64,000 bases of DNA from Trypanosoma brucei (lineage: Eukaryota). Below are positions 13,637 through 55,076 of this stretch, piece by piece (positions within the stretch are counted from its first letter, which is position 1; each line of letters begins with the position of its first letter). The translations under genes were made by a program, and so were the position numbers. The stretch is taken from NCBI GenBank assembly GCA_000002445.1, contig CP000068.1:672001-736000 (forward strand), read 5' to 3'. The notes beneath the pieces are model-generated. The model saw only the letters and a program-made list of their open reading frames with translations. It did no database searches and had not been told where the DNA came from.

Positions 13637-13720
13637 GGTGTGTGCCTGTACGAGTGCTAGATAAAAAGCTCTCAGTACTTGTCGTCTTGGCCCCCATGTA
13701 TAAACTGAGATGGCTGTTAT

Positions 13721-21042: not shown

Positions 21043-21110
21043 CATGTAGTGCATGTAGTACTGGTTTGCATCCCGTGGAAACCTCTGCTTTTGTGTAGCA
21101 CCCGCGATTT

Positions 21111-29048: not shown

Positions 29049-29474
29049 AGGTGACGGGCATACGTTAGTGTGTGTTTTGTTTATACGGTGATGTAAAAAA
29101 TGACTTAAATTTTCATCTGTTTTTCGGTAATATTGTAGGTGCATATTCAACTCTTTGAATTTCTAATGGCGGTACTATTAGTATTATTTTTTTTAAATAC
29201 TTTCCTTGTTCACGAATATGTGATATCTACTGATTCGTATGAGCACTTTTGTTTTTTTATGCGTCTTCCTGTCTTCGCTAGCGTTTTGTTGTTGATGTAT
29301 TTCTTGATTTGCTTTTCGTTTCTTTCTTTATGCTCTATACCTTTTTTTGCCTTTCCCTTGTATCCGCATATTCTCGTCCTCTGGTCTCTACTCCGCCATA
29401 TTTATTCATGTAGTGCATGTAGTACTGGTTTGCATCCCGTGGAAACCTCTGCTTTTGTGTAGCACCCGCGATTT

Positions 29475-30905: not shown

Positions 30906-31153
30906 GCAGTATCCGCCTCTGCTTTTTTCTGTTCATCTTGTTTTATTGACTTTAGAGCCATATTTAGGCTCCGCTATGCGTCCTTGTTGGTTAGAGGTTT
31001 AGTATTGTTGTACCTGACTCTGTGACTGATGGTGGGTGCCGCACCGTATCTGCGGCATGGGGTGCTTGCGTGAGTGAGGATCCACACTTATTTGACCGCT
31101 GTTTGCTATGAAATGTTTCCCTCCTTTCCTACTTGTAGCCAAGTTAATATTGC

Positions 31154-32494: not shown

Positions 32495-32879
32495 CCGACA
32501 TTGCGTTGAGTGTTGATCCGGATGTAAGATACACATATGTATGCGGAGGTGGGCGCGTGCGACTCCTTCAAGCATTCCATGTTATAATTTGTTTGCCGCG
32601 CTTGGTCTCGTGATGCTGAGCGATTGTGCCTGTGTTTGTGGTTTCACCCCCTCTTGTCACGCCTTCCGCGGTTGGTGTGATTCCATTTGTGTTTGTTTCA
32701 TGTGTTTTGTTTCCCTCACTACATTGTGTGGTGAGGTTTGCTACTCTTATGATGAGTGCGCCTTGTGCCGCGTGCGTGTGTAGTGCTCATTTACCACTTG
32801 CTGCTTTCCCTTAACCTATTTCTGGATGAAAGAGACTTTACTCTTGTTTTTACCCACGTTCAAGCCGACACGGATAACA

Positions 32880-33230
32880 ATGGCCACCTGCCCTAAACAC
32901 CTGTTCGGGAAGTACCATCTAAAGAGTTTTAATGGCAAAAGCGCCTTGGAGGGCGAACTGGCCGGTGTGACACTGGAGCTTGGTGAAGAAGACGGTCGTG
33001 TCACAGTACGCGCGAAGGCGGGAAATGCGATGAATGGTGTGTTGAAGTATGAAGGTGGGATGCTCACCGGTCCCTTGATGTCCACAAGAATGATGCCGCC
33101 CCCTGCTTTGATGGAGGTGGAGAGTGCTTTCAGTTCTGGATTTTCCAGCGGTATGCATGCGCTCCGTGAAGGCTCTTCTCTTACGCTTTCGCATAAGACA
33201 GACACGATGGTGTTTGAGGCCGTGGAGTAA
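32880..33230 (+). CDS. Array gene C, copy 4 (edge copy, mosaic variable patch): 117-aa FABP/calycin-like protein
   Basis: GPLMSTRMMPPPALMEVESAFSSG. The left part resembles copy 0 and the right part the internal copies. It is followed by the same tail sequence as copy 0. Confidence 0.6.
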   Translation: MATCPKHLFGKYHLKSFNGKSALEGELAGVTLELGEEDGRVTVRAKAGNAMNGVLKYEGGMLTGPLMSTRMMPPPALMEVESAFSSGFSSGMHALREGSSLTLSHKTDTMVFEAVE

Positions 33231-33751
33231 ACTTGTTTCTCGACATGCAGTTACCCTTTTATTTTCTACTTGTGTTGCCACTACACTTTCGTGTTTGTGG
33301 TCGGTGTTAGCGAACACTACCTTTGTTTACCACTTAGTGTTATGTTATTTATTTTTGAAATCGGGTTATTATTTTTATTTTTTTTTCCAGGGTGTAGATA
33401 TTTGAACCCTAATAAACGTAAACGTTTTGTTAATTTATACGGGGGTACGTGTTTTTTTATTTGTTATCGAGGTATAGGCCTTCTGTCATGGTGACTACTG
33501 GACATTTTCGCTTCCTCTTTGCTGGATGCTCCCTGAATACTCAACGTAATAGTATGAAGAAAAGTGAGATGGTAGGCGGGGAATAAGTATGAGCGAAAAC
33601 CATTAGTTATTGTGGTTATATATATATATATTTATTGTTTTTGTCTGTGTCTACCTTTTTTTTCCACAAAGAAATAATATATATTTTTTCGCCTCTTGTT
33701 TTTGGTAATTTGTAAGTTGCTACTTTATTATATATTTGGGAAGTAAATATT

Positions 33752-37339: not shown

Positions 37340-40300
37340 GTGACATACGGGTCCATGATGGCGGCCATCACACGCTATTCACCCCATTCAGAGCGGACAA
37401 GGGTTCATTACGAGCGCTTCCTACGTGATATTCGCCGTTGGTTGCCTCCAGGACTTGATGACAGCATAGGTGAAGTTGCAGAGGAGACTCTGTCCATTGT
37501 TTGCCGTGCAGGTAGTGGTGGTTTCAGTGGCTCTGGGGCAGCGACACAACTGCAGAATGTTCGTAAGCAACTCGAAACACTTTTTGATAGTCCACTGAGT
37601 GCGGAGACCCTTAACGAGGTGCTTCAGTACGGCCGGCTGATAGATGACTTCGTTTCGACAGAGGATGAACCTGGTGCTCACACCAACAACGTTGTCGCTG
37701 AAGATGGACTGAGTGATCTTTTGCTAATGCAGGAAGGCAAAGGCCAGCGGAAGCCGTCTGATATGTCGTCATCCGATTCAGATGGCGATACCCAAAAGGC
37801 CGACTATGGTAAGGGACGTGACCTGATGAAGTTTGCCGCAGATGTTGACAGTATCAACGATGGTTTCGATGATCAGAACGACGACGATGATGCAAACTGC
37901 ACGAACGCCATCCGTGTCACCTTCGAAGAGGTTGCGTGCAATCCGAACTATATTCGTGATTCTTTGCGTCGTCTGTTTCCCACGCAAACGATCGAGGAGT
38001 GCGATTTACAGGCAGAGCGCGTATTGCAGTACTGTGGAAAGCGGTCCGTGGATCAGCTAACACTGGAAACCCAGCTTACTGCATTTCTTGGCGGTTATGA
38101 CGACGAGGCGGTGACCGACTGGATCGCTACAGTGGCTGCATCTCGCTGGGATATCGTTTACGGCATGTCTTTCGCGTCGAAACAAACCCAGAAGGAAAAG
38201 TCTCTTGTGATGGATGCAGTAAAGGAGCATGCGCGTACTGACCGGGTTGTGGAGCGACTTTACCAAAGTATCACAGGGAAGGAGTTAGACAACAAGCCCC
38301 ATTCTGGTGAGCGGGGAAATGATGCCGATGGATCCAAACCACTGCGACGTGTTGATCTCCAGGCCTATGCATTTAAGGACGAACGCACACCGCATCAGTA
38401 CACGCACGCTGTTGTTCCCCAGGGGACAAAACGTGCGGTGTTTGAAACCCACGATGAAGTTATTCTCCCACCAACGGCTTCGGCGACAGAAAATCTTCCC
38501 TGCACGCCATTGGCCGTGTTCCCAGAGTGGGCACGACCCGCTTTTCCTGGAGTCACGCAACTGAATCCGATGCAGTCAAAGATTTTTGAGTGCGCTTTTA
38601 GGAGCGATGAAAATATGCTCGTTTGTGCGCCAACAGGGGCAGGAAAAACAAATGTTGCGATGATGGCAATACTGCGGGCCATATCAAACAACATGTCACG
38701 GACCGGTCTCGTTAACCTTCGAGAGTTGAAGGTGGTATATGTGGCTCCTATGAAGGCACTGGTCCAGGAGGTGGTGCGCACGTTCTCTGCGCGGTTGGAG
38801 CCGCTGGGACTTGCCGTCATTGAATTAACCGGAGATTCTGGTGCTAATCAGGCACAGGTGGGCGGTGCGCAACTCATCGTCACCACACCTGAGAAGTGGG
38901 ACGTTGTGACTCGAAAATCCGTCGAACTTGGTGTCGCGTCTCTGCTAAAGTTGCTTATTATCGATGAGGTCCACTTGCTGCATAACGAACGAGGACCTGT
39001 GCTAGAAGCTATCGTTGCCAGGACGCTACTGCAACAGCAACACCGATGTGAAGCGGGAATTCGCCTAGTAGGACTCAGTGCCACGCTGCCTAACTTTCAT
39101 GACGTGGCTAGTTTTTTGCAGGTCGATCGTCAGCGCGGGTTGTTTGTTTTTGATAGTTCTTACCGGCCAATACCTTTACAGCAAACATTCTGCGCTGTTA
39201 AAAAGGTTCGCGGAACGAACCAGGCGGCGGTGATGAACCTTGTGGTCTACGATAAAGTGTTAGAGGCGGCAACGGAGGGGGCTCAGTCGTTAGTATTTGT
39301 TCATTCTCGAAAAGATACAGATTACACCGCCCTATACATCGTGAGGCGCGTTGTCGATGACAAGCGGACGCATTACTTCGTGCGACCTGGAAGTGACTCG
39401 GAGCAGGTTCTGAGAGAGGCTGTGAGTGACCCATCAAATTCGCTGCGTCCGAGCATACAACAGATGCTTCCTTTTGGGTTTGCGGTCCACCACGCCGGCA
39501 TGAGCCGTGAGGAGCGCAGCCTCGTGGAATCATTATTTGCGGGTGGACATGTGCGAGTGCTCGTCTGTACATCAACACTTGCATGGGGCGTTAATTTACC
39601 AGCACACCAGGTGATTATCAAAGGAACACGGGTATTTAATGCTGCAAAGGGTGAAACTGAACTGCTCAATGCACTTGATGTTCTTCAGATGTTTGGCCGT
39701 GCGGGACGTGTCGGTTTCGGTTCTACGCTTGGAAGGGCAGCTGTGATAACGAGTGCCGAAGATCTACAGTATTACCTGAGTGTCCTCAACAATCAACTTC
39801 CAATTGAGTCGCAAATGATGCGCCGAGTTGTTGACATGTTAAATGCGGAGGTTGTCCTTGGACATATCACCAACTTGGATGAAGGCGTTCGGTGGCTCCA
39901 GCGCACGTACCTCTATATTCGTATGCGACGGGCTCCAGAGATTTATGGGGCACGTGCAAGTAGTAACGATCCTCTTCTTTTGCGTCACCTCGGGAATATT
40001 GTTCATACTGCGGCAGATGATTTGCGACGCTCACAAATGGTGGAGTACGACTCCAACACCCATCGCATTGCAACAACCTCACTGGGGCGCATTGCATCCC
40101 ATTATTACCTCACCACTACTTCTATGGCAACGTACCTTACCTACTTGTGTAACACTATGCACGATGTGGATCTGTTTCGCCTATTTTCAATGTCGAAGGA
40201 GTTTTCTCACATTATTGTTCGGCCGGAGGAGCAGTCCCAGCTACAGTATTTACTCGAGAACGCCCCCATTGCCGTTCGTGAGAGCCGCTACACTCCGTTA

Positions 40301-43300
40301 GCGAAAATCAATGTACTACTACAATGCTACATTAGTAATATGAACCTCCAGGGGTTGCCTTTGATGAGTGAAATGTCCTATGTGAAAGATTCCGCTCAGC
40401 GAATCCTTCGTGCTCTTTATGAGATTTCTTTGGTACGTGAGTATGGTCGTACAGCTCAGCAGATGTTGCAACTTTATCTCATGACTGTGCACCAACAATG
40501 GGCAGTACAGTCACCAGCGCGTCAACTTCGACACACGGTCCCACCTAAAGTTTTTGCTTCATTCATCCATGCTTTGGAGAGTCGTCGTGTTTCGTGGGAG
40601 GAGGTTCGTTCGTGGTCGTTGGAGGATTTGGTTGAGAAACTAAGCGATGAACGGCGAGCAGAAGCTGCTTATGCATGCATTCGTCGGGTGCCACACTTTA
40701 TTGTGGAAGCTGCGGTGCGCCCCCTTACACGTCGCATGTTGTATGTGGACGTAGACATAACCCCGGATTTTATGTTTGATGAAACGGTACACACTGGTAC
40801 ATCGGGTGAATTGGTCATTACAGTGGAACACACCAATGGACGCATTCTTCATTGTGAACGTATTAATCTTAGGGCAGCAGCTTTGCGTGGTTGTGAAACG
40901 GTCTCATCGCCGACTATTGTAGTGCCTGTAGTCGATCCCAAGCCCACACACTATTTTGTGCGATGTCACTCCATGAACTGGCTTGGTGTGGAGAGCAGCG
41001 TTGCGATATCCCTCATGAATGTTTTACTTCCGGATATTGCCCCACCTTTGCTGGAAGTGCACCACCGACCACCATCCGTGCGAAGTGAAGACGAGCGAGA
41101 TGTTTCCACTGCCATGCAACCTTACGGGATGGAAGCTGCGGCATCAAAGGTTTTCCCCTTCACAGAGTTTTTTCAAATACAGCACGACCTGGTTGCACCA
41201 ATAATGGAGAACAGGGGTGAAAGCTTCTTTGTCGCGTTCCCTCCTGGAAGCGGGAAAACGGCTGTTGCCGAGATTTTCATTTTGAAGTTCCTTCTGGAAT
41301 GCGCTCATTCACGGAGTGCCAATGGGGTTAGTTCCCCTGTTGGCGGGGGGAATGAAGAGGAAAACAATGACGGAGGGGAATCCATATTGAGAACCGAGCA
41401 AAAACTTCTGTATCTCACAGCCACCGAGGCGTGTGCTATGCGCCGCTATAACGAGTGGAGATACAAGTTTGGTGAGGAGCTCAACCAACGGGTGGCGAAG
41501 CTGGAGCCATACGGGGAAGAACTAGCGATCAAGGCTGAAAAAGTGAGAGGAGCAACAATAATCATTAGTTGTGGAAGTAGCTTTGCTCCTCTTCTCCGGC
41601 ACGGTGCCATGGATTTTCTTTCTGCAATCACGCATGTAATCGTTGATCATGTACACCTCCTACGTGCGCCGGAAGGTCGGTGGATGGAGGAATGCGTAGC
41701 GCGTTTGCAGTCGAAGCCCTATATAGTGAATAGGGGCCAAGGGCCGGCGCGTCTTCTTGCGCTGTCATACCCGTTGATCAGCTGCACTGAGGTATCGCGC
41801 TGGATGAAAGTGCCAACAGCGAGGCAGTACAACTACGGCAACTCCTACAGACAGCTTCGCGTTCGGCTTGAGGCTGTAGAGCAATTTAGCGCTCGCAGTC
41901 GCTATGCGGCGGCCACTATTTCAGTGTTGAAGCTACTGCAAAATGATCGGTATGCTGTATCACCCTGTGTGATTTTTGTTCCCACCGCACAAGATGCAGA
42001 GGAGCTTGCCCGCCGTATTGTTCTTCGCTGTCGTGATTTTGTTCCTACTGATGCCTGTGAAGATGTTGAGGACCGTCAACTCGCTCTTTTGTTGGCGTCA
42101 GGTGTTGCGTACATGCACCGCGGAAGCAGTTTGTTGGATGAACTTAACATAACGGAGAAGGTGGAACGACCCGCGCGACACCCTAAAACTGACGAGCCAC
42201 TACCTTTGTACCTTGTCTGCAGTTTTGAAGCCGCATGGAGGCTTCCCGCTGCATTGTTTGCCACTGCATTTGTGTGTGCTGCTGAGCGTATTGGTAATGT
42301 TTGTGAAGAAGATAAGGAGTCTGAGGTTGGTGATTTCGCTACCGACTGCTCCGTCTCGGAGTTGCTGCAAATGACGTCGCGGGCGCTCAATGAGGCTGTC
42401 GTGTACTGTCGGGCCGCCCGGCGTTGGGTGTGGAGCCGTCTCCTTAACGATCCGTTGCCGATAGAGTCACACCTTAGGTATCCTGAAGACTTCCGCGATA
42501 CGATCAACACCGCCGTTGCCCAGGGCCGGGCAAGAGATATGCCTGACGTACTGCGCATTCTTCAAAGCCACTACTTTTTGCACCACCTTCGCACAAACTT
42601 GCACTTCTACGGTGTACCCTCCAAGGAAGACATACCCGCTTACGCATCGGAGTTCGCGCGATCTGTCATAGCATCATTACAGCGGACTGGATGTGTCACT
42701 TCAAGTTCCAACTCAGCCTCATCAACAGGTTGTGACGGTGATGAACTGACTGCTCTTCAACCCACACCACGTGGTGTAGCGGCTATGCGCCACGGGATTT
42801 CCATCGAGTCTCTTGAGGCGATTGACGAAGCTGTGTCTGCTAACAGCAGATGTGGGGACTCAGTGACACGCATGTGGAGGGTGATAGCGTCATGCTGTGT
42901 GGAACTGACGCCGCAACATGTTGGAGATGCCGCGCGGATTGTAGACATCGCTGAGTTGAGTGCCCTTCACGTTGTGGCACGAGCTTTTCCCCATACCTAC
43001 GATGTCCAATATCTGGACATGGATTTCAGCAAAGGTTGGACGAAGGTGCATTTACTGGTTCTTGCACACTGTGCCCGGATGTTTGTACTGCCAGTCAGTT
43101 GTGACGATGGAGGTGTTGAGGCGGAGCGTGGGGAGATAGATGCACTTCATCCATTCGCATCGCGGTCTTCTTTGGCTGTCGAACCTCAACTGCTGCTGCA
43201 GATACCTCACAGTGTGGCCGAACGGCTTCTTGAAGACTTAAACGTCTTACTCCCCGTGGTGTTGGATTTAGTTCGTGGCGTGAGCGAAATTTTTGATGGG

Positions 43301-44068
43301 AGAACGCAATGGAGGCATGCCCGCTGTTTGATGCGGCTTCTTTCCCAAATCGAGCGTCGCGTGTGGGGGTTTGAGAACCCGATTATGGTGGTGCCTTGTG
43401 TGCAGGAGACTCCTGCACTCCAGCGACTGCTGCTGTCGGAGGACCCCAACTGTGTTTCATACTCGCTCGAACGTCTCCAAGAGCTGTGCGATGCTGGAGT
43501 CAAAGCCAGCAAAGAGTGGTGCGATCTAGCTAAGCGCTTGTGCGAAGAAGTTCCAGTGGTAAGTGATACCGCTGCCAGTGAAGCGTTGGTTCGTCGGTTG
43601 CGCTCCGAGGTCGCAGCTGTTCCCCGTGTCGTATCCCTTTCGTCCCGTGGAACGATCGAGTTAACTAAGGGCGGACAGGCCTTTGTTATCCGCGTAACAG
43701 GACGCGTTTTATGCGCGTGCTCAACAGTCGGCGGCTCATTGGGACCGTGGTGGATAGCTTGTGTCGTCCGGCACAGCGGTCGGGAACATGTCACAGAAAG
43801 GCTTATGGCGCTTCGCACTGTAGCGGCGGTAGTGGAGCCAACAACAAGGGACACTCAGGGCGGCAATACGCGTGATAAAGACGCCACTGGAAAGGACCTC
43901 ACAACTCCACCACCACTGCTCTCAGCCTGGAGTATAGAAGAAACACTTTCATTTCCTCTACACGCTGTGGATGGCGAGGATCTTGATACAATTACGATGG
44001 TTGCTATCGTGATTTCGGCGAGGTATCGTGCCGATGCGGAGGTGGACGTAACCTTTGCAGCGGGATAA
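37340..44068 (+). CDS. BRR2: Brr2 / U5 snRNP 200-kDa-type Ski2-like helicase with two helicase-Sec63 cassettes (ASCC3-like alternative not excluded)
   Basis: 2242 aa. Cassette 1: VCAPTGAGKTNVAMMAIL, IIDEVHLL, SATLPN, FHHAGMSREER. Cassette 2: VAFPPGSGKTAVAEIFIL, VIVDHVHLL (DHVH instead of DEVH, i.e. a degenerate second cassette as in Brr2). Confidence 0.7.
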   Translation: MTYGSMMAAITRYSPHSERTRVHYERFLRDIRRWLPPGLDDSIGEVAEETLSIVCRAGSGGFSGSGAATQLQNVRKQLETLFDSPLSAETLNEVLQYGRLIDDFVSTEDEPGAHTNNVVAEDGLSDLLLMQEGKGQRKPSDMSSSDSDGDTQKADYGKGRDLMKFAADVDSINDGFDDQNDDDDANCTNAIRVTFEEVACNPNYIRDSLRRLFPTQTIEECDLQAERVLQYCGKRSVDQLTLETQLTAFLGGYDDEAVTDWIATVAASRWDIVYGMSFASKQTQKEKSLVMDAVKEHARTDRVVERLYQSITGKELDNKPHSGERGNDADGSKPLRRVDLQAYAFKDERTPHQYTHAVVPQGTKRAVFETHDEVILPPTASATENLPCTPLAVFPEWARPAFPGVTQLNPMQSKIFECAFRSDENMLVCAPTGAGKTNVAMMAILRAISNNMSRTGLVNLRELKVVYVAPMKALVQEVVRTFSARLEPLGLAVIELTGDSGANQAQVGGAQLIVTTPEKWDVVTRKSVELGVASLLKLLIIDEVHLLHNERGPVLEAIVARTLLQQQHRCEAGIRLVGLSATLPNFHDVASFLQVDRQRGLFVFDSSYRPIPLQQTFCAVKKVRGTNQAAVMNLVVYDKVLEAATEGAQSLVFVHSRKDTDYTALYIVRRVVDDKRTHYFVRPGSDSEQVLREAVSDPSNSLRPSIQQMLPFGFAVHHAGMSREERSLVESLFAGGHVRVLVCTSTLAWGVNLPAHQVIIKGTRVFNAAKGETELLNALDVLQMFGRAGRVGFGSTLGRAAVITSAEDLQYYLSVLNNQLPIESQMMRRVVDMLNAEVVLGHITNLDEGVRWLQRTYLYIRMRRAPEIYGARASSNDPLLLRHLGNIVHTAADDLRRSQMVEYDSNTHRIATTSLGRIASHYYLTTTSMATYLTYLCNTMHDVDLFRLFSMSKEFSHIIVRPEEQSQLQYLLENAPIAVRESRYTPLAKINVLLQCYISNMNLQGLPLMSEMSYVKDSAQRILRALYEISLVREYGRTAQQMLQLYLMTVHQQWAVQSPARQLRHTVPPKVFASFIHALESRRVSWEEVRSWSLEDLVEKLSDERRAEAAYACIRRVPHFIVEAAVRPLTRRMLYVDVDITPDFMFDETVHTGTSGELVITVEHTNGRILHCERINLRAAALRGCETVSSPTIVVPVVDPKPTHYFVRCHSMNWLGVESSVAISLMNVLLPDIAPPLLEVHHRPPSVRSEDERDVSTAMQPYGMEAAASKVFPFTEFFQIQHDLVAPIMENRGESFFVAFPPGSGKTAVAEIFILKFLLECAHSRSANGVSSPVGGGNEEENNDGGESILRTEQKLLYLTATEACAMRRYNEWRYKFGEELNQRVAKLEPYGEELAIKAEKVRGATIIISCGSSFAPLLRHGAMDFLSAITHVIVDHVHLLRAPEGRWMEECVARLQSKPYIVNRGQGPARLLALSYPLISCTEVSRWMKVPTARQYNYGNSYRQLRVRLEAVEQFSARSRYAAATISVLKLLQNDRYAVSPCVIFVPTAQDAEELARRIVLRCRDFVPTDACEDVEDRQLALLLASGVAYMHRGSSLLDELNITEKVERPARHPKTDEPLPLYLVCSFEAAWRLPAALFATAFVCAAERIGNVCEEDKESEVGDFATDCSVSELLQMTSRALNEAVVYCRAARRWVWSRLLNDPLPIESHLRYPEDFRDTINTAVAQGRARDMPDVLRILQSHYFLHHLRTNLHFYGVPSKEDIPAYASEFARSVIASLQRTGCVTSSSNSASSTGCDGDELTALQPTPRGVAAMRHGISIESLEAIDEAVSANSRCGDSVTRMWRVIASCCVELTPQHVGDAARIVDIAELSALHVVARAFPHTYDVQYLDMDFSKGWTKVHLLVLAHCARMFVLPVSCDDGGVEAERGEIDALHPFASRSSLAVEPQLLLQIPHSVAERLLEDLNVLLPVVLDLVRGVSEIFDGRTQWRHARCLMRLLSQIERRVWGFENPIMVVPCVQETPALQRLLLSEDPNCVSYSLERLQELCDAGVKASKEWCDLAKRLCEEVPVVSDTAASEALVRRLRSEVAAVPRVVSLSSRGTIELTKGGQAFVIRVTGRVLCACSTVGGSLGPWWIACVVRHSGREHVTERLMALRTVAAVVEPTTRDTQGGNTRDKDATGKDLTTPPPLLSAWSIEETLSFPLHAVDGEDLDTITMVAIVISARYRADAEVDVTFAAG

Positions 44069-45125: not shown

Positions 45126-47957
45126 ATGCAACGTGCCCAGATTCTCAAAGCGGGCGCAGTTTGCGCCGGTCGTCGAGAGAAATGCTCGGCAACCTCCTCC
45201 GCATCCTCGGGCTCTTCACCGAAAACAAACAGTTCAGGTACTTTACAGGTTTGTCGAGGGCGGCAACGGACTGTTAGTGAAGCACCATCCACCCCAGGAA
45301 GCGAGGGTATACGGTTCGGGGTTCAAGGATCCCTTCGAAGATTTTGGAATAGTCGTTCACAGTCAGGGAAGCCCATTGCTACCGATGCTTCCGTTGATGG
45401 GAAGTGCACAAGCATAACGACCGATGAGGTGAAAGTGCCGTCTTCCGTCTCCGTTTCCTCGCCTATCCACGTGTGTGACGATGTGGTTACCACGAAGGGT
45501 GACTGTGGGTTAGTGTGCACTGGGACTCAAACTAGCGTGGAGTTTTGTCGACATCTCAGTTTGCAGCAATGCGGTGTGGCCGTTGAGCACGGCGTTGATT
45601 CAAGTCTTCACAGCGAGGGATTGCTCCCAAAGCTGCGGTACGGCTCGAGGCGAATGGTTAAGCGACTGATGAGACGTCTTCGGTTGCCAAGTACCTGGGA
45701 GGCAACACTCATTCACTCACTTAACGAGGCCAGAGGGAATCCACACACTGTCGCTGCCGCATTAACCAAGCAGCTGGATAGCAGTTGCGGGAAGTTAGTG
45801 TTACTTCCGCCTATAACGGCTGTGGGTGGGGAGAATCTGGAGTGTTGTAGAACACAATATAACACACAACGTACTGATGAAGTACCTCGTGTGCAGGGTG
45901 GGGAAGGTGTTTCGGATGAAATCACGCATAGTCCCGTGCGGCGTATGGATGGTGCCCCGCCATTGACTGTCGGAGAGGTAAGTGGTGCGCAGCCCAACAA
46001 GCAGAGGGCTTTCCCCTTGCAAACCACGAATGCATCGGCAGAGGACTCAAATTTATCGGCATGTGTATCCGGGAATACACCCGAAGGTCCGGCGCGTCCG
46101 TCGTTCGGTGGTCTTGACCTGGACACCGGCGTGGGTGCCGTGGGCAGGAAGGGTTCCATTGTGGGAACACCGTCGGGATCTAGCGAGAATCAGCCAGGGG
46201 ACGCGAACAAAACCTCGACCCTAAGGACGAAAGGTGCCTCCACCGCCGCCTCCGGGGGATTGCCGTTGAGAGCACCACGGGTAGGGGAAGACTTTCAGTT
46301 ACAGGAGGTGTGTAAAGTAAACGCACCGTTTGCGGATGGTTCGTTGCGGACTGACTCCATTTTTCAGTTGCCGGGCCTGTCGTGCAGGGAAACACCATCA
46401 TGTGAGCAGAGTTTGCCAAAGGCGGGCCTGGAGTTGTCGTTGTCAACTGACAATAAGGAAGCGAGTCGTATGGAGGGCGTCGGCGGCGCATACTTCTCCG
46501 GGGGGAAGGGGGGCGCATGTCCTTCAGAGAAGTTCTGGACATCGAGTCGCTCAGTTGATGAAGCAAACCCGGTGGACCCATTTGCAACGGACGGGACATT
46601 AAACCGTGCTGTTCTTCAGAAGACTGCGTTTGCTACACCCTTAACTCCTCCATTGATCAGTGCAGCAGCTACCGAAGAAGGATGTGTGCCTCCGCCACCC
46701 ACGCTCAGCGTAGGAACCACCGAGGACAAAGGCATTCCCTCATTACCGCCACCACCACCGCCGCCACCACCGCCTGTTCGAGGGAAAGTACCGGAAAACC
46801 GCCGGTGTTGTAAAACGCGCAGTGTTCCCATAGATAAAACACAATACATCGCGGGGAGCTCGGCGTTTTGCGCGAGTGAGCCTGTTAACCTGCCTGGAGA
46901 TTTTTTTCAAATTCTCGCGGAGGAATTCAAGCTTGCCGAATCCTCCTCCACAAGGAAAGCGCCGGGTTTGGTAGCAGAGACCATTGTCAGTACAGATCGC
47001 GAGAAAAACGTTGGCGTGGTGCTGCGTGTTCTTCGGCTTCCTGTGAGTACCATCGAAGAGTGCGTACGCAGTTTCGACGATGATACGCTATCGGAGGAGT
47101 GTGTAGCTAGTTTGGCCAAAGTAATTCCCACAAAGGAAGAGAGGCGTTTGGTTGAATCGTGGATTAATCAAGACCCTGCTGTTGAGGCATGTAAGTTGCA
47201 TCGATTGAGTACGGTGTCCCAGTTTTTCGTTATGTGCGTCTCAGTTGACTTGTACGCTGAGCGTATAGAATGCTGGAACATGCGAAACGAATTTAATTGC
47301 CGCGTTGAGGATCTTGAACAGAAACTGAAGCGTGCTCATGACGGCATTCGGGCGGCCCTGGACACTAAACGTCTGCCAAGGGTTCTTCAGTATATTTTAG
47401 CGATCGGCAACTTTCTAAACGCTGGTAGCAGGTATGAAGATGCAAAAGGATTTTCGATCTCCCAGCTTGACCAGATAATACAGTTCCCGACTACGGACAG
47501 AAAGCGTACTTTACTGGAGCATGCTGTGATGGTCATTGAGCGATGCGAACCAGACTTGCACCGATTTACACAAGAGTTGCTACCGAAGGTGGAGTACGCA
47601 GGTGGCTTTGACACGGTCGGCGTCACCAGTGAAATTCAGTACCTTCGAGAACGATTGGAAAAATGCGTGACGCTGGTTCATACTATTGCAGAAGATAATC
47701 CCTGGACTTCAAAACTTGACCCTTTTTTACGTAGTGCCCTACCTGCAATGGAACGTATCGAGCAGCATCACAGTGACTTAGAGGCTGTTAGCGAAGAATT
47801 GGCGATCTTCTTTTGCGAGGACCCAAAGACGTTCCCCATGAACAAAGTCATGCGATGCCTCTCGAGTTTTGCGAAAAGGTACGATGGGAAGAGGGCCCTA
47901 TTGCAGGGGAGGAAAATGAACCCTTCTAAGAACCCCCGTCGTGCAATTAGAAGTTAA
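45126..47957 (+). CDS. Formin (FH1 poly-proline tract + FH2 domain)
   Basis: FH1: SLPPPPPPPPPPPVRG (about 46740..46790). FH2: LAKVIPTKEERRLVESW...RLPRVLQYILAIGNFLNAGSRYEDAKGFSISQLDQI (GN-x-L/M-N formin motif). The true start may be a downstream Met. Confidence 0.7.
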   Translation: MQRAQILKAGAVCAGRREKCSATSSASSGSSPKTNSSGTLQVCRGRQRTVSEAPSTPGSEGIRFGVQGSLRRFWNSRSQSGKPIATDASVDGKCTSITTDEVKVPSSVSVSSPIHVCDDVVTTKGDCGLVCTGTQTSVEFCRHLSLQQCGVAVEHGVDSSLHSEGLLPKLRYGSRRMVKRLMRRLRLPSTWEATLIHSLNEARGNPHTVAAALTKQLDSSCGKLVLLPPITAVGGENLECCRTQYNTQRTDEVPRVQGGEGVSDEITHSPVRRMDGAPPLTVGEVSGAQPNKQRAFPLQTTNASAEDSNLSACVSGNTPEGPARPSFGGLDLDTGVGAVGRKGSIVGTPSGSSENQPGDANKTSTLRTKGASTAASGGLPLRAPRVGEDFQLQEVCKVNAPFADGSLRTDSIFQLPGLSCRETPSCEQSLPKAGLELSLSTDNKEASRMEGVGGAYFSGGKGGACPSEKFWTSSRSVDEANPVDPFATDGTLNRAVLQKTAFATPLTPPLISAAATEEGCVPPPPTLSVGTTEDKGIPSLPPPPPPPPPPVRGKVPENRRCCKTRSVPIDKTQYIAGSSAFCASEPVNLPGDFFQILAEEFKLAESSSTRKAPGLVAETIVSTDREKNVGVVLRVLRLPVSTIEECVRSFDDDTLSEECVASLAKVIPTKEERRLVESWINQDPAVEACKLHRLSTVSQFFVMCVSVDLYAERIECWNMRNEFNCRVEDLEQKLKRAHDGIRAALDTKRLPRVLQYILAIGNFLNAGSRYEDAKGFSISQLDQIIQFPTTDRKRTLLEHAVMVIERCEPDLHRFTQELLPKVEYAGGFDTVGVTSEIQYLRERLEKCVTLVHTIAEDNPWTSKLDPFLRSALPAMERIEQHHSDLEAVSEELAIFFCEDPKTFPMNKVMRCLSSFAKRYDGKRALLQGRKMNPSKNPRRAIRS

Positions 47958-49237
47958 AATGGGTGTGGAGAAGTGAAGGTTGAATTGGCCCCATGCCGCC
48001 GCCCGGAGAGACGTGAGTAAATGCTCTCTGTCACTTGCAGCGGAAGCGGACCGTCGCATATGTTCAGCTAGCGGTCGCGGTTTAGTGATATGACGTTTAC
48101 CAGGGTACGCGGAGTGCAACGTGAGCATGAGCATTTTTCGTTTCCGTGTCGACAACTATGGTTTGTAGAGGTCCTCATCCACATACACCACTGTTTTTTT
48201 TAAATTCTATATGTCTTTGTGGATGTTGTGGAGATGCTTACGTAGCGAGATAATTCGCCGCGAGGAACAGGGATGGATCCCGCAAGGAGTACATCACTCT
48301 TGAAGTTTGACAACAGTGTTTCATATTTGCTGCTAAGTGTGTGTGTGCATGTGTGGTAGTTGGAAAAATATGCAATGAAGGGAGAGGCGAGTGCCCAGAT
48401 TTTCAAATCAACTAGAAAAAGAGATAAAAAGCAAGAAACAACGTGAAAAGTTAAAAGTGGTCTTGTTGTAAATCCAAAAGTGTTGCAACCTTCGTATTTA
48501 CGCCTAAAGTGCATTTGTATTTCTATATTTGTTTCAACAGCGCAGCACTTGCTGCTGTTTTTTTTATTACTCCCCACTGGGTTTGGGACCCTTAAAGTCA
48601 TTGTCCACGTGTTCGCCATTTATTTTCATTCACTTTTCGCTTTGGTTATTTTCGTTCATACAAATGCAATTATTAATGTTGTTACATTGAGTGTCACCCT
48701 AACAACTTTTTCCATTATACATTCTCTTGTTATTCCGTGCATAATTTTTTTTTTTTGCGTATGGTTCGTGTGTGTGTAACCGCGTTATTTATACCGTTCT
48801 GTTTAAAGATCTATTAGCTCAGATTTCCGGTGACCAGTTGGACTCTAGGTTGTGCTGAAGGGTTAAACTTGCTTGTTTCACGGAGAAAAGAGCCCTTCCA
48901 TCCAGTTCCAACGAACACCCCATTTTCACAGAAACTTGATTTTTCTTTCACTTCACCGTGTACGTCAGTCTTGTTTTCATTTTAACTTTACTGACTTGCT
49001 TTGTCATGCATAGTTTCCCTTTGAGTGTAGAGTGCGCGCTAGGAAGAGTGGAGGTGGTGAACATGATACCTGTGGTTTCGAAATGTTGTCCTGCCATCAT
49101 GTTATTGAGGTAATGTTACGCTGTTACCCCAATTGGTGTACATTTGCGATAACACTGACTCATTGTGAAACTGCTTCCCCTTGCTTTATTTTCTTGTTCT
49201 TGTTCATCCTTTTTTTTTCTACTAATTTTTCTCGATT

Positions 49238-51478
49238 TTGCGAGGCAGTGGTTGGGTCGCCTGCGGGAAATACCGTTTAAGGGCCCAGGAGAGAAGGCAG
49301 GTTGTCCTCGGTTTACCTCTGTGCTTCATAAATCAGCAACTCATGCGCGTGCGAACAAAGCGAGAAGGCGTTAGCAACAACTTTGGAAGCGCTTATGTCA
49401 ACTGTGAAATCATCAGTGCCTTCATCAAGCAAAAAAGGGAGGAAAACTCCTCCTCTGGACTTTGTCCGTCCGCGCACACCGCTGTAGAGTGGAGTATCCG
49501 AGCTGGTTCCCGAACAGCATTTTTGCTTCACGAGGTTCCCATATCCTGTGGACCGTCATCTCCCGTTGGTAAGGAGTGTGGTGCACCTGAAAACAATGAC
49601 AATTCCGTCGAGAATGGCGACACCGGGACATATAAGTTGGTAATAGGTGACGAAGTTGTGTCTGCCATAATGAGTGCAGACGATGAGTTGGATCGGTCCG
49701 ATGCTTTGCGTCTCCTTTCGCAAAAGCTTTGTGAAGTCTTTCGCATACCTGTGGGGATCACCACGGGCGACAACAGCCACGGTAATTGCCTGTGGAGTGA
49801 GGAGGGTTCGTGTTCAGTGTTGACACCACAAGAATTACGGGAGCTACCCTCACGCTGGATAATGCAGAGCCTAAACGAAGCCACCGTGGCGAGTTCACAC
49901 CGTAACGGCGTTACACTTCTTGATTGTGGCGCAACAGTGTGTTTGAAGTCAGAGGTTCTCAATGACGAGCCAAAACGCGAACTCAGTAGCGAGCCTGTGC
50001 GTAAAAGGAACTATAAACCTGGTAATGCGCCACAGTATCGGGTGTGTGACGTCGCTGACATGGCTAACGGGCAATATTGGGTTGAGGTGGAGCCGTTAAT
50101 AACTGGTCCAGAATCAACAGGATCTGTAGCCCGAAGGCGGTTTGATCGGGATGAGTTGCTGTTAAGTCCACCCCAACCCGTATACTTTGATCCACTTCTT
50201 CCAGTTGATGAGATAAATAATTCTCGTGGGACGTCGGCATGTCTTTTTCTTTCGGCAGTGTTAGCAGTTGGTCGGATACGTTCTGAACGTGCGGCAATCG
50301 GTGATCTGTCGATGTGGGACATGTATCCGAAAAATGTTACGTTGCAAATGGGTTACGCTTCGCGAGATATAAGGCGCAAAGTGCACGAACTGTGTGCGGC
50401 ACGTCGCGACGCTCTCCACGTGGAGGGTGGCACTGAAGGTACAGACGTGAAAAAAGAGGAGTTGGAGTTGCGGTTAGTTACTGACTACGTAACTTTGCGC
50501 TACAAGGGGAAAACAATTGAAGTCCTGCAACGAACGGTGGAACGTCTGTCGTTGCTATGGGACGCGCGGTTGGCAGTGAGAAGAGTGAGGGGGGCTAGGA
50601 GGGCACACGAATTATGGCTTGACGCTGTAGAAACACAGGCCGCATCAGATTTTTCTGAGAAGATACACGTTTTCAGCACCGTTGAGCCGTTCTTTATGCG
50701 CCTGTTTACTTTGTTGCTGCGGTATAGTTCACTGTTCGGTGATTTAGGTTATAATCAAGGGCCGCATGCCGCTGTTCCACCGGCAATCATGCAACAGTTG
50801 TGTCAGGTATTTGATATTCAGTGTGAGGCATTTGCAAGCCCACTCAATGCTCAGTTGCCGCTATTTTGCTCCCTGTTCCCCGACACTGATTACTTTTTTG
50901 GGTCACTGGGTTCCTTTTTCGACATCGCGCTGACAGCAGGACATTTTGAGGTAAATCCACCTTTTGTAACTGCGGTGTTACAGCGGCTGGAAAAATTACT
51001 GCTGAAAGACACCCTACCTATTAACGACAGTGATGGTGCTGCATCTATGTTATTTGTTGTAGTGCTTCCGTCCCACGACCTAGATGAAACTGAGAGGAGT
51101 GATGGCCTGGAAGGGGGAGCGCCGGTTGCAGGGAACACCACTCTGAGGCAGAATAATAACTGCGATAGGAAGAGGGGCCGCTTTGAAAACGATGGGAGAG
51201 ATAAAGGTGGCGGAAATGCTGTAAGCACCGACCGGGCACTACGGGAGAGTCCGTACTGTCTTGCTCACGTTCTTTGTTCTGCCCATGAGTCCGTGTACGT
51301 TGACGGACATCAGCACATGCTTCGTGCACCCCTTTTTTGTATTGGGTCTCCAACACGACTTATTGTGCTGGGAAATCGAACGGCCCGCCTTCGTTACAGC
51401 GACGCCGCAACGCGGTTACAATCTGTGCGAGAGGCATGGCGGGGCTACACCTTGGAGAACAGAGTTGATAGCCCGTAG
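49238..51478 (+). CDS. Candidate PCIF1/CAPAM-like N6-adenosine methyltransferase (NPPF motif). N-terminal extent uncertain.
   Basis: NPPF tetrapeptide at 50954..50965 within ...CEAFASPLNAQLPLFCSLFPDTDYFFGSLGSFFDIALTAGHFEVNPPFVTAVLQRLEKLL. The FASPLN / FPDTD / (F)E(A/V)NPPF / EKLL arrangement matches my recollection of the PCIF1 catalytic region. No WW domain seen. Confidence 0.5.
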   Translation: MRGSGWVACGKYRLRAQERRQVVLGLPLCFINQQLMRVRTKREGVSNNFGSAYVNCEIISAFIKQKREENSSSGLCPSAHTAVEWSIRAGSRTAFLLHEVPISCGPSSPVGKECGAPENNDNSVENGDTGTYKLVIGDEVVSAIMSADDELDRSDALRLLSQKLCEVFRIPVGITTGDNSHGNCLWSEEGSCSVLTPQELRELPSRWIMQSLNEATVASSHRNGVTLLDCGATVCLKSEVLNDEPKRELSSEPVRKRNYKPGNAPQYRVCDVADMANGQYWVEVEPLITGPESTGSVARRRFDRDELLLSPPQPVYFDPLLPVDEINNSRGTSACLFLSAVLAVGRIRSERAAIGDLSMWDMYPKNVTLQMGYASRDIRRKVHELCAARRDALHVEGGTEGTDVKKEELELRLVTDYVTLRYKGKTIEVLQRTVERLSLLWDARLAVRRVRGARRAHELWLDAVETQAASDFSEKIHVFSTVEPFFMRLFTLLLRYSSLFGDLGYNQGPHAAVPPAIMQQLCQVFDIQCEAFASPLNAQLPLFCSLFPDTDYFFGSLGSFFDIALTAGHFEVNPPFVTAVLQRLEKLLLKDTLPINDSDGAASMLFVVVLPSHDLDETERSDGLEGGAPVAGNTTLRQNNNCDRKRGRFENDGRDKGGGNAVSTDRALRESPYCLAHVLCSAHESVYVDGHQHMLRAPLFCIGSPTRLIVLGNRTARLRYSDAATRLQSVREAWRGYTLENRVDSP

Positions 51479-52865: not shown

Positions 52866-55076
52866 ATGTTGTGCGCGTTGGATGACACTTGGGCAGATTG
52901 TCTTGATGAGTTTAAATTGGCCCTTTCCTCCACGGGAAATACGTGGAAATGTGAATCATTAGCGGGTGTCGATAAGGAGGCGATGCTCAGCGCTCCAGAG
53001 GTGATGGATGCCAAGACGGACCCAGGATGCGGATATGCTCAAATCCGCTCGCTCAACGACCTCCTCGCGAAAGGGGACATTCCTTCGGCTGCAACACTGC
53101 AGGGACAGGAATTACTGGACGTCATGGACCTCATTCTTGCTAAGGAACTACAATATCTTCAGGGATTTTCCCTTACTTCGGGTTGTCTTGCCTTCCCGTA
53201 TTTTTTCAAGATGGATTTACTAAAGGAGCAGAATCCTGTGTTGCATGCGTATTGCCGAGGTGTTGTGAGGACCGTAGAGATTGTGCTGCGTGCGGTCATG
53301 ACGACTGGGATCCGCAGCGATGAGGAGTTTGTGCCATGGATAAGGGAGATGGAAAGCGAGGAAAACGTGCCCGATGAGCAGATTCTTTGTCAACTTGAGG
53401 AGGCTGCATGCAAGGCAGACTCACCTGCCGTTGCGACGCGGTTGCGTTGGCGCATGGACTTTCTTTCTGCGCTCCGGTTGTTTGTTGTTGTTGAGGGAAA
53501 AGCGGCTGTTGAGGAGGCATGCGGTATATGCAGCGCGGCGCAGGAGCTGTTGAATTCAGATGACTATGCGCGTACTTTTGAGCCCGTGCAGGATGGCCGT
53601 TTTTTCCGCGAGACTGAGGTTGCGTATTGGGCGAGTGGTTTCACTCCAACAAAACCAATGCCCGTTGCTCCCTTTTGTGAGGTGGTGCAGTCGTACACGA
53701 CAACGCTGCAGCAGTTGGCTTCACTCAAAGATTTGTTCAGTTTACCGTCTATTCAAGCCATCTTGGAATATATCGAGTCTATCGGGGCGCAGAAGCCGCT
53801 GCTTCCAGTGCGAGCAATTGCAGTAATCGCACTATTTCGCAGTAATCCAAGTGAGTCTTTTCTTTATGGTCCTTCCTTGAGCCATCGCGTTCTTGAAGAC
53901 TTGTCAACAAGTTACGGCGCCCCCCTTTATCTTGGAATAATGGAGGGAAAGGAGGAATTACTCGAGGGTGTGGTGAAGTATCGCCTTCACAAGGGAATGG
54001 ACCACCGCAAAGTAACACCTCAACAAACCGAGTTCCTCCGCCAGCACACCGTAGATGCTGTACGTAGTTGGGCAAGAGAAATGGAAAAGGTATATCTTAT
54101 TCATATGGAGTGTATGCTCTGCAACCGGGGTCTTGCCCACCGCCGGCTTATGAATGTGCTGCCCCAACTAGGGGGACTGCAGGAAATGTCGTACAGCACT
54201 GACATTAACATTTTTCTTTCTCAGACCCCGGGGTTGGCTGCGGACTTGCAGAACGAAGCTATCAAGCGAACATCAATACTTACAATGTACGCTAACCAAC
54301 ATGTTTTGCATGTGATGGAGCTTATTTTCTCCCTTACGGTTGAACTTGATCTCTTTACGCAGGGAGAGCTTGTACCCGCACTTTGGTATATGAATTTTAT
54401 ACAGCGGCTGCAGGTGGAGAACCTCTTAAATTTATCTCCGCCATATGGCGCTTTAATTCCTGAAACCCGTATAAACCGGGTAACGAAGGTACCACTGTAT
54501 AATCTGGCCCTAAGCACTCGTACCTCAGGGAATGTGGACACACTTCGTGTTGCCATTTTGGAGACGGGTCGGCAGATTACTGATGCTCTTTTCCGTGCCG
54601 CATGCGTGATGGAGGCCAAGGGGCTTATCGACTTCAAAACTCAGGGAAAGTACTCACTTACTACGGTGGAGAGAGTGTTTAACAACCGCATGAAATGCTT
54701 GGGCCACATCCGCAGCCCAACCTTTGTGCCATACGGCTACTGTGTGTCTGCCAAACCTAACTTTTCCTCAACTAATGACGGGGATCCACCGAAAATTTCA
54801 CATTACGCTCACGAAGCAGGCGTGCAGGCGCTTAATGCGGCAGAGCGATTGAAACATCTGCTAGCGATGAAGGGCCTCGATGGGGCGCGCGGGAGAGCTT
54901 TGTACGAACACATCAAGGCAATGGAAAAGACAGCGCGGGCGATAAATGCGTCTTTGGCATCATTTGTTGGTGTGTGTGACGATGAGGAGGCATTGAAGGG
55001 GTATGCCGTGGAGGTTTGTCGACCCTTCCATTCCTGTATGATATGCCTCACCTTAAGGAAGAGGACAACCGCTTGA
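52866..55076 (+). CDS. Conserved hypothetical protein, possibly Mak10/NAA35-like (NatC auxiliary subunit)
   Basis: 736 aa, close to the size of human NAA35. The N-terminal stretch EAMLSAPEVMDAKTDPGCGYAQI resembles the recalled NAA35 N-terminus (EAMSAIEMMDPKMDAGM). Otherwise unassigned. Confidence 0.5.
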   Translation: MLCALDDTWADCLDEFKLALSSTGNTWKCESLAGVDKEAMLSAPEVMDAKTDPGCGYAQIRSLNDLLAKGDIPSAATLQGQELLDVMDLILAKELQYLQGFSLTSGCLAFPYFFKMDLLKEQNPVLHAYCRGVVRTVEIVLRAVMTTGIRSDEEFVPWIREMESEENVPDEQILCQLEEAACKADSPAVATRLRWRMDFLSALRLFVVVEGKAAVEEACGICSAAQELLNSDDYARTFEPVQDGRFFRETEVAYWASGFTPTKPMPVAPFCEVVQSYTTTLQQLASLKDLFSLPSIQAILEYIESIGAQKPLLPVRAIAVIALFRSNPSESFLYGPSLSHRVLEDLSTSYGAPLYLGIMEGKEELLEGVVKYRLHKGMDHRKVTPQQTEFLRQHTVDAVRSWAREMEKVYLIHMECMLCNRGLAHRRLMNVLPQLGGLQEMSYSTDINIFLSQTPGLAADLQNEAIKRTSILTMYANQHVLHVMELIFSLTVELDLFTQGELVPALWYMNFIQRLQVENLLNLSPPYGALIPETRINRVTKVPLYNLALSTRTSGNVDTLRVAILETGRQITDALFRAACVMEAKGLIDFKTQGKYSLTTVERVFNNRMKCLGHIRSPTFVPYGYCVSAKPNFSSTNDGDPPKISHYAHEAGVQALNAAERLKHLLAMKGLDGARGRALYEHIKAMEKTARAINASLASFVGVCDDEEALKGYAVEVCRPFHSCMICLTLRKRTTA

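What the first reader, a model, noticed from the sequence alone, without database searches (positions are those of the whole stretch)
49238..51478. PCIF1/CAPAM-like NPPF methyltransferase candidate in an organism whose cap-adjacent adenosine is N6,N6-dimethylated
The ORF contains an NPPF tetrapeptide (50954..50965) in the context FASPLN...FPDTDYFFGSLG...FEVNPPF...EKLL. NPPF is the catalytic motif of the cap-specific m6Am writer PCIF1. In other N6-adenine methyltransferases the corresponding motif is DPPW or NPPY. Kinetoplastid cap-4 begins with m6,6Am, and the enzyme that installs the N6 methyls on the spliced-leader cap is not, to my knowledge, firmly assigned. A PCIF1-like protein is an obvious candidate. 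The trypanosome Pol II CTD lacks heptads, so the absence of a WW domain would be expected.
Basis: partly seen in the sequence, partly recalled or inferred. Interest (0 to 1): 0.7.

Follow-up and report, generated by a model that had tools for sequence, protein, structure and literature searches.

The report
Trypanosome PCIF1 cap adenosine methyltransferase gene

Summary
An intact ORF lies at 49238..51478 (+). The real CDS is 49343..51478 (711 aa), and NPPF sits exactly at 50954..50965.

The PCIF1 assignment holds on every test I could run:
- Pfam PF12237 scores 122.5 bits against a cut-off of 31.1 (E=1.8e-35).
- phmmer against human and zebrafish PCIF1/CAPAM gives E~1e-17, with NPPF aligned on NPPF.
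- No WW domain is present.

The window is T. brucei chromosome 5. The gene is the syntenic orthologue (BRR2-formin-PCIF1-NAA35) of the T. cruzi protein. A 2024 NAR paper, citing Pandey et al. 2020, states that T. cruzi PCIF1 converts m7GpppAm to m7Gpppm6Am.

The idea is therefore right but already published, and databases already label the protein 'PCIF1 WW domain-containing'. The same paper says no activity making N6,N6-dimethyladenosine has been reported, so the second methyl is still unassigned.

One new detail: all kinetoplastid-type homologues carry His (P-S-H-D) where most other PCIF1s have Trp (P-x-W) just after strand beta5. They also carry a ~50-aa insert there. The significance of both is untested.

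The parts
49175..49248 (+). Polypyrimidine tract followed by AG dinucleotides; the probable trans-splice acceptor region of the gene. Inferred, with no RNA data.
   Evidence: Read directly from the sequence. There is no ATG between here and 49343.
49343..51478 (+). Coding sequence of the T. brucei PCIF1/CAPAM orthologue (711 aa plus stop).
   Evidence: It is 99% identical to T. b. gambiense P0001 (711 aa), and the N-terminus is conserved in orthologues.
49343..50209 (+). Kinetoplastid-specific N-terminal region (aa 1-289). It has no WW domain and no Pfam family. Conserved blocks include ELPxRW(V/I)MQS, VT(L/P)LDxGATV, YWV(E/D) and RxDRD...DPLLPxDE.
   Evidence: Pfam scan at E<=10 found no family. 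Invariant columns are listed. The check for WW-like Trp spacing was negative. There are only weak Tudor/SH3-like fold hits, on a low-confidence model.
50210..50737 (+). Helical region with beta-hairpins (aa ~290-465), corresponding to the CAPAM helical domain. The boundary is approximate.
50738..51475 (+). Rossmann-type methyltransferase domain (aa ~466-711). The boundary is approximate.
50825..50848 (+). E-A-F-A-S-P-L-N block (aa 495-502), near-invariant across the whole PCIF1 family.
   Evidence: It aligns to human ECFASPLN.
50876..50890 (+). F-P-D-T-D block (aa 512-516), followed by FGSLGSFF; family-wide conserved acidic and glycine motifs.
   Evidence: It aligns to human FPDTDGYFGSRG.
50954..50965 (+). 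N-P-P-F catalytic motif (aa 538-541).
   Evidence: It aligns on the NPPF of human and zebrafish PCIF1. In alignment A1, Asn, Pro, Pro and Phe are invariant in all 15 trypanosomatid sequences. All 21 kinetoplastid-type sequences of A3 also have NPPF. Asn and the two Pro are at least 90% conserved over all 106 sequences of A3.
51068..51079 (+). P-S-H-D (aa 576-579), immediately after strand beta5. His578 replaces the Trp of the P-x-W motif found in most other PCIF1 homologues.
   Evidence: His is present in all 50 kinetoplastid-type sequences checked (cluster members included) and in no other PCIF1 homologue checked. Trp is present in 122 others.
51080..51226 (+). Clade-specific insert (aa 580-628) rich in acidic, basic and Gly residues, predicted disordered. 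It contains RKRGR at aa 609-613, a possible nuclear localisation signal (inference only).
   Evidence: Alignment gaps in non-kinetoplastid homologues. pLDDT is below 50 for model residues 307-329. Motif position.
51296..51316 (+). Y-V-D-G-H-Q-H block (aa 652-658) in the C-terminal strands of the MTase domain. It matches the family consensus YxxGxQH.

Best explanation
The CDS 49343..51478 encodes the single-copy Trypanosoma brucei orthologue of PCIF1/CAPAM, an S-adenosylmethionine-dependent, cap-specific adenosine-N6 RNA methyltransferase. It consists of a kinetoplastid-specific N-terminal region that replaces the WW domain, a CAPAM-type helical domain, and a Rossmann methyltransferase domain with an intact NPPF active site. 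The most likely mechanism is as follows. In the nucleus, the helical and MTase domains bind the m7G cap of spliced-leader RNA. The first transcribed nucleotide, already 2'-O-methylated (Am), is placed at the NPPF loop, and one methyl is transferred from SAM to N6, giving m6Am. This is the first of the two N6 methyls of the m6,6Am found in cap 4. Shown here: family membership, fold, conservation of the catalytic and family-wide motifs, absence of WW, and orthology by synteny to the T. cruzi protein. Taken from the literature: m7GpppAm to m7Gpppm6Am activity of the T. cruzi enzyme. Inferred: the same activity for the T. brucei protein, SL RNA as the in vivo substrate, nuclear location, and recruitment by something other than a phospho-CTD/WW interaction.
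For: - Pfam PF12237 gives E=1.8e-35, 122.5 bits against a cut-off of 31.1.
- phmmer against PDB sequences finds only human (6irv, E=1.2e-17) and zebrafish (6irx, E=1.8e-17) PCIF1/CAPAM, with FASPLN, FPDTD and NPPF aligned residue for residue. A profile of 15 trypanosomatid orthologues improves this to E=4.8e-26.
- The AlphaFold model of aa 290-711, built on a 106-sequence alignment, has pLDDT 84 and pTM 0.80.
- Foldseek against the PDB puts six CAPAM/PCIF1 entries on top (E=2.1e-19 to 4.8e-14; 399-451 aligned columns). The next hit has E=0.015.
- All residues that are at least 90% conserved across 106 diverse PCIF1 homologues are present: R460, Y461, E495, F497, A498, S499, P500, N502, S510, F512, D516, G520, S521, G523, F525, N538, P539, P540, P576.
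- Orthologues with 45-55% full-length identity exist in T. congolense, T. cruzi, T. vivax, T. rangeli and T. conorhini. Leishmania, Leptomonas and Lotmaria also have them, at 46-51% identity over the C-terminal region only. No species shows more than one cluster.
- Synteny with T. cruzi is conserved: BRR2, formin, PCIF1, (PDE), NAA35.
- Literature: PMC11417388 states that T. cruzi PCIF1 converts m7GpppAm RNA to m7Gpppm6Am RNA, citing Pandey et al. 2020. PMC12781443 repeats this.
Against: - There are no experimental data for the T. brucei protein in the literature I could search.
- The primary paper, Pandey et al. 2020, is not held, so its result is taken from citing papers and from my memory of its abstract.
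- The residues that contact m7G in the CAPAM crystal structures could not be compared, because neither model coordinates nor a contact list were available.
- The global TM-score to CAPAM is only 0.56. This may reflect a different arrangement of the helical and MTase domains (untested). The kinetoplastid clade has also changed a widely conserved Trp to His next to the active-site edge and gained an insert there, so substrate handling may differ from the animal enzyme.
Confidence: 0.8

Rival explanations
1. The protein is the complete cap-4 N6,N6-dimethyltransferase. The kinetoplastid PCIF1 clade adds both methyls to A1, possibly only on a substrate that already carries the other cap-4 methylations or is bound by SL RNP or cap-binding proteins. 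No second enzyme would then be needed.
For: - It is the only PCIF1-family protein recovered from each named kinetoplastid species, and no species shows more than one cluster.
- The exhaustive HMMER search shows one kinetoplastid-type clade of 24 clusters, with no species labels.
- No m6,6A-forming cap activity has been reported from any other enzyme.
- The clade has a private substitution, Trp to His at P-x-W two residues after beta5, in all 50 sequences checked and in no other lineage. By the standard class I MTase topology this position lies on the same sheet edge as the NPPF loop, so a smaller side chain there could make room for an N6-methylated adenine. That last step is inference.
Against: - Citing papers describe the T. 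cruzi enzyme as producing m6Am, and PMC11417388 lists the dimethyl activity as not yet reported.
- The catalytic tetrapeptide is the same NPPF as in the mono-methylating animal enzymes.
- Other PCIF1 lineages also lack the Trp, carrying S, T, A or K instead, so losing it is not unique to organisms with m6,6Am.
- The position of His578 relative to the target base was not measured.
Confidence: 0.2
2. The protein also, or instead, writes non-cap m6A in T. brucei, for example the m6A in poly(A) tails of VSG and other mRNAs, for which no writer is known.
For: - Kinetoplastids lack METTL3, METTL14 and METTL4 (PMC8868631). [quoted passage not shown]
- Human PCIF1 has low but measurable activity on internal A/Am and on uncapped 5'-Am RNA (PMC8931429 abstract).
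- This protein is one of the few recognisable N6-adenine RNA methyltransferases encoded in the genome. That statement is inference, since the whole genome was not searched here.
Against: - The fold includes the CAPAM helical domain, which in the animal enzyme helps form the groove that accommodates the 5' cap.
- The activity reported for the T. cruzi orthologue is on capped Am RNA.
- Nothing in the sequence points to poly(A) recognition.
Confidence: 0.1
3. The protein is a catalytically dead scaffold, like Drosophila Pcif1, retained for a non-enzymatic role.
For: There is precedent. Drosophila Pcif1 has NPPH instead of NPPF, and flies lack m6Am (PMC9479742).
Against: - In the 15-sequence trypanosomatid alignment A1, N538, P539, P540 and F541 are invariant, as are E495, F497, S499, P500, N502, D514, D516, G520 and G523.
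- All 21 kinetoplastid-type sequences of A3 also have N, P, P and F at 538-541.
- The T. cruzi orthologue is reported active.
Confidence: 0.02

Closest known systems
Human and zebrafish PCIF1/CAPAM (PDB 6IRV, 6IRW, 6IRX-6IS0), the cap-specific m6Am writer
   Different: There is no WW domain. A ~290-aa kinetoplastid-specific N-terminal region takes its place. His replaces Trp in the P-x-W motif after beta5, and a ~50-aa disordered insert follows it. Identity is only about 17-24% over the structural alignment. The presumed substrate is a single RNA species, SL RNA, whose A1 ends up dimethylated at N6.
Trypanosoma cruzi PCIF1 (P0004), reported as an m6Am methylase contributing to cap 4 (Pandey et al. 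2020 Cell Rep 32:108038, as cited in PMC11417388 and PMC12781443)
   Same: It is 47% identical over the full length. The domain layout, PSHD motif and insert are the same. The chromosomal neighbourhood is the same: BRR2, formin, PCIF1, NAA35.
   Different: The T. brucei protein itself has not been assayed in any paper I could find. T. cruzi has an extra phosphodiesterase gene between PCIF1 and NAA35.
Dim1/KsgA/Erm/TFB1M N6,N6-adenine dimethyltransferases
Drosophila Pcif1 (catalytically inactive, NPPH)
   Same: It belongs to the same family.
   Different: The fly protein keeps the WW domain but has lost the catalytic Phe (PMC9479742). The trypanosome protein shows the reverse: the catalytic motif is intact and the WW domain is absent.

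Membership tests
PCIF1/CAPAM cap-specific adenosine-N6 methyltransferase (Pfam PF12237) | Significant match to the family profile, above the curated gathering score | tested here: met
   PF12237 gives E=1.8e-35, 122.5 bits against a cut-off of 31.1, covering profile positions 17-147 of 176.
PCIF1/CAPAM cap-specific adenosine-N6 methyltransferase (Pfam PF12237) | NPPF catalytic tetrapeptide at the position homologous to human and zebrafish NPPF | tested here: met
   NPPF (aa 538-541) aligns on NPPF of 6irv_A and 6irx_A. It is invariant in the 15 trypanosomatid sequences of A1.
PCIF1/CAPAM cap-specific adenosine-N6 methyltransferase (Pfam PF12237) | Family-wide conserved motifs around the cofactor and substrate site (ExFASPLN, FPDTD, FGSxGSFF, P after beta5, YxxGxQH) | tested here: met
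   All columns that are at least 90% conserved in a 106-sequence alignment are retained. The exception worth noting is the commonly conserved Trp of P-x-W, which is His578 here.
PCIF1/CAPAM cap-specific adenosine-N6 methyltransferase (Pfam PF12237) | Three-dimensional architecture: helical domain packed on a Rossmann MTase domain, as in PDB 6IRV-6IS0 | tested here: met
PCIF1/CAPAM cap-specific adenosine-N6 methyltransferase (Pfam PF12237) | m7G-cap-binding pocket residues between the helical and MTase domains | not testable with these tools
Only family-wide conservation could be examined (R460 and Y461 of the LLRY helix are conserved).
PCIF1/CAPAM cap-specific adenosine-N6 methyltransferase (Pfam PF12237) | N-terminal WW domain that binds Ser5-phosphorylated Pol II CTD (a feature of the animal proteins, not of the catalytic family as a whole) | tested here: not met
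   There is no Pfam hit in aa 1-289 at E<=10. The only Trp pair with WW-like spacing (W151/W172) lacks the xxP, W151 is not conserved, and the low-confidence full-length model predicts a helix over aa 162-180, which includes W172.
PCIF1/CAPAM cap-specific adenosine-N6 methyltransferase (Pfam PF12237) | Enzymatic activity: SAM-dependent, cap-dependent conversion of m7GpppAm to m7Gpppm6Am | not testable with these tools
   This activity is reported for the T. cruzi orthologue, according to PMC11417388 and PMC12781443. Orthology is supported by 47% full-length identity and synteny.
Dim1/KsgA/Erm rRNA adenine N6,N6-dimethyltransferases | Sequence-family match (RrnaAD-type profile) and the characteristic C-terminal helical RNA-binding domain | tested here: not met
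MT-A70 (METTL3/METTL14/METTL4) N6-adenine methyltransferases | MT-A70 profile match with a DPPW-type motif | tested here: not met
   There is no MT-A70 hit in Pfam, and the motif is NPPF. Kinetoplastids are reported to lack all three enzymes (PMC8868631).

The most novel reading that the evidence does not exclude
The kinetoplastid PCIF1 clade is a true N6,N6-dimethyltransferase. It installs both methyls of cap-4 m6,6Am by itself, on the proper SL RNP substrate. The clade-private Trp-to-His change (P-S-H-D) next to the NPPF loop, possibly together with the adjacent insert, would be what converts a mono-methylating PCIF1 into a di-methylating one.
Probability: 0.2. Interest if true: 0.6.

Novelty: already known. 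Interest (0 to 1): 0.2.

Why it matters
Cap 4 is required for trans-splicing of every trypanosome mRNA, and its base methylations are the least understood part of the pathway. This finding does not open a new question. Databases already label the protein 'PCIF1 WW domain-containing', and activity of the T. cruzi orthologue was published in 2020. The remaining value is practical:
- It identifies the exact T. brucei gene to deplete. By gene numbering this is probably Tb927.5.2310, next to formin Tb927.5.2300, but that identifier is inferred.
- It flags a clade-specific active-site-edge substitution (His578) and an adjacent insert that can be mutated. Such experiments would test whether one enzyme makes both N6 methyls or whether a second, still unknown, methyltransferase exists.

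Tried and rejected
- The full-length AlphaFold model built on 15 orthologues was poor (pLDDT 54, MTase domain below 50). It was replaced by a model of aa 290-711 built on 106 sequences.
- A word-indexed homologue search with the C-terminal 272 aa returned only 10 distant hits and missed the orthologues. It was replaced by a profile search and an exhaustive HMMER search.
- A fold search of the poor full-length model for the N-terminal region gave only weak Tudor/SH3/Agenet-like barrel hits (E about 1). I make no domain assignment from these.
- The WW-domain hypothesis for W151/W172 was rejected.
- The primary papers were not held: Pandey 2020 and Boulias 2019. The list of cap-contact residues in human CAPAM therefore could not be obtained, and I did not trust my memory of it.
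- A cluster look-up to name the non-trypanosomatid 'kinetoplastid-type' sequences gave no organism names.
- Gene-ID searches found Tb927.5.2290 (BRR2) and Tb927.5.2300 (formin) but no paper naming the PCIF1 gene itself.
- Rfam and tRNA scans of the whole window found nothing.
- The Dim1/KsgA and MT-A70 families were considered and rejected as memberships.
Full report
**Observation.** The TTG at 49238 is only the mechanical start of the ORF. The first ATG is at 49343, and there is no other ATG between 49238 and 49343. It lies about 95 nt downstream of a ~60-nt polypyrimidine tract with AG dinucleotides (about 49175-49248), which is the usual layout of a kinetoplastid trans-splice acceptor (inferred, no RNA data). 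The resulting N-terminus MRVRTKREGV matches the MxVRTxREGV start of orthologues from Trypanosoma to Leishmania. The CDS is therefore 49343..51478 (711 aa). Its chance expectation from the protein's composition is 0.003.

**Organism and locus.**
- The protein is 99% identical (5 substitutions) to a T. brucei gambiense protein of the same length.
- Neighbouring ORFs are: UPF1 and ingi-type RT/RNase H ORFs on the minus strand; a tandem array; an LRR protein; an acyltransferase; BRR2; a formin; the PCIF1-like gene; and NAA35/Mak10.
- BRR2 is Tb927.5.2290 and the formin is Tb927.5.2300 in the literature. The window is therefore T. brucei chromosome 5.
- The gene is probably Tb927.5.2310. This is inferred from numbering only; no paper naming it was found.

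**Family membership.**
- Pfam gives one hit, PF12237 (PCIF1_WW), at E=1.8e-35 and 122.5 bits against a cut-off of 31.1.
- Against all PDB sequences, only human and zebrafish PCIF1/CAPAM are found (E=1.2e-17 and 1.8e-17). FASPLN, FPDTD, FGSxG and NPPF align residue for residue. A profile of 15 trypanosomatid orthologues raises this to E=4.8e-26 and finds nothing else.
- A first full-length AlphaFold model was too poor in the catalytic domain.
- After I collected 113 diverse PF12237 proteins with a profile search, a model of aa 290-711 reached pLDDT 84 and pTM 0.80.
- Foldseek against the PDB returns the six CAPAM/PCIF1 entries at E=2.1e-19 to 4.8e-14, over 399-451 alignment columns. The next hit is at E=0.015.
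- Every column that is at least 90% conserved across 106 homologues is retained.
- The exhaustive HMMER search finds 2541 representative clusters at E<=1e-3 and a clean kinetoplastid-type clade of 24 at E<=1e-30.

**What differs from the animal enzyme.**
- Residues 1-289 have no Pfam family at E<=10, so there is no WW domain. The one Trp pair with WW-like spacing fails the other WW criteria.
- This N-terminal region has strongly conserved blocks within trypanosomatids. A small beta-rich element around aa 225-280 gives only weak Tudor/SH3-like matches on a low-confidence model. I do not assign it.
- In the catalytic domain, the kinetoplastid-type clade has P-S-H-D where 86% of the 83 other homologues in the alignment with a residue at that column have P-x-W. 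In a wider set, His occurs in all 50 kinetoplastid-type sequences and in no other lineage. Trp occurs in 122 others, and a minority have S, T, A or K.
- The motif sits two residues after strand beta5. By the standard class I methyltransferase topology, that is on the same edge of the sheet as the NPPF loop after beta4. This placement is inference; I could not measure it.
- A ~50-aa low-complexity insert (aa 580-628) follows directly. It is predicted disordered and, in T. brucei, contains RKRGR.

**What is already known.**
[quoted passage not shown] 2020, Cell Rep 32:108038. [quoted passage not shown] A 2025 review repeats the T. cruzi assignment.
- I could not read the primary paper. From memory, its abstract says that Trypanosoma Pcif1 is an m6Am methylase that contributes to the m6,6Am of cap 4.
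- The T. cruzi protein in the databases (P0004) is 47% identical over its full length to the window protein. It lies in the same gene order, BRR2-formin-PCIF1-(PDE)-NAA35, so the two are orthologues.
- Public databases already label the T. brucei and related proteins 'PCIF1 WW domain-containing protein'.
- I found no paper that tests the T. brucei gene itself.

**Mechanism.** The best-supported reading is that this protein binds the m7G cap of SL RNA through its helical and MTase domains. It then transfers one methyl from SAM to N6 of the 2'-O-methylated first adenosine at the NPPF site, giving the first N6 methyl of cap 4.
- Shown here: membership, fold and motif conservation.
- Taken from the literature on the orthologue: the enzymatic activity.
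- Inferred: the in vivo substrate, nuclear location and recruitment route.

**Rivals.**
- It performs both methylations (about 0.2). Points in favour are the single gene per species, the lack of any other reported activity, and the clade-private His578. Points against are the m6Am-only description of the T. cruzi enzyme and the unchanged NPPF.
- It also writes the non-cap m6A of T. brucei, whose writer is unknown (about 0.1).
- It is catalytically dead, like the fly protein (about 0.02). The invariant catalytic motifs contradict this.

**Verdict.** The remaining open question is who adds the second N6 methyl. That question is real but not new, and the sequence alone does not settle it.

Noticed in passing
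window 51068-51226 (aa 576-628); also P0001-P0015, P0026-P0030, P0035, P0041, P0145-P0152: All kinetoplastid-type PCIF1 homologues have His (P-S-H-D) where most other PCIF1s have Trp (P-x-W) just after strand beta5. A ~50-aa disordered insert follows. His at this position was seen in no other lineage. The functional meaning is unknown; it might relate to N6,N6-dimethylation.
   Followed up: partly
window 49343-50209 (aa 1-289, especially aa ~225-280): The N-terminal region that replaces the WW domain is conserved within trypanosomatids but matches no Pfam family. A small beta-rich element gives only weak Tudor/SH3/Agenet-like fold matches (E about 1) on a low-confidence model.
   Followed up: partly
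window 19972-33244: There is a tandem array with a 4182-bp period and three copies. Copies 1 and 2 are 99.98% identical and copy 3 is about 93% identical. Each copy carries a 476-aa ORF with no Pfam family and a 446-aa ORF with META and DUF1935 domains.
   Followed up: partly
window 11223-15394 (minus strand): Three consecutive ORFs include one with a reverse transcriptase domain and one with an RNase H domain. This looks like an ingi-type retroelement with frame breaks. It lies just before the change of coding strand at about 16-21 kb (divergent strand-switch region).
   Followed up: no
window 2982-5516 (-), 37340-44068 (+), 45126-47957 (+), 52866-55076 (+): The neighbouring genes are UPF1, BRR2/U5-200K helicase (Tb927.5.2290), a formin (Tb927.5.2300) and the NatC auxiliary subunit NAA35/Mak10. 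The BRR2-formin-PCIF1-NAA35 order is conserved in T. cruzi, which has an extra phosphodiesterase gene between PCIF1 and NAA35 (locus L001).
   Followed up: yes
related proteins P0101, P0109 (PF12237+PF01728); P0068, P0108, P0120 (PF12237+PF01501); P0100 (PF12237 + kinase); P0148 (4332 aa): Some PCIF1-domain proteins from unnamed sources are fused to other domains. The partners are an FtsJ-type 2'-O-methyltransferase domain, a glycosyltransferase family 8 domain, and a protein kinase domain. In P0148 the PCIF1 domain sits at the end of a 4332-aa product. An FtsJ-PCIF1 fusion would combine the cap-1 and m6Am steps in one polypeptide. These may also be gene-model fusions.
   Followed up: no
PMC2753553: Tb927.5.2320, a 'hypothetical protein, conserved' that is either this gene's downstream neighbour or close to it, is listed among transcripts up-regulated in stumpy-form T. 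brucei. I could not establish which window ORF carries that identifier.
   Followed up: no
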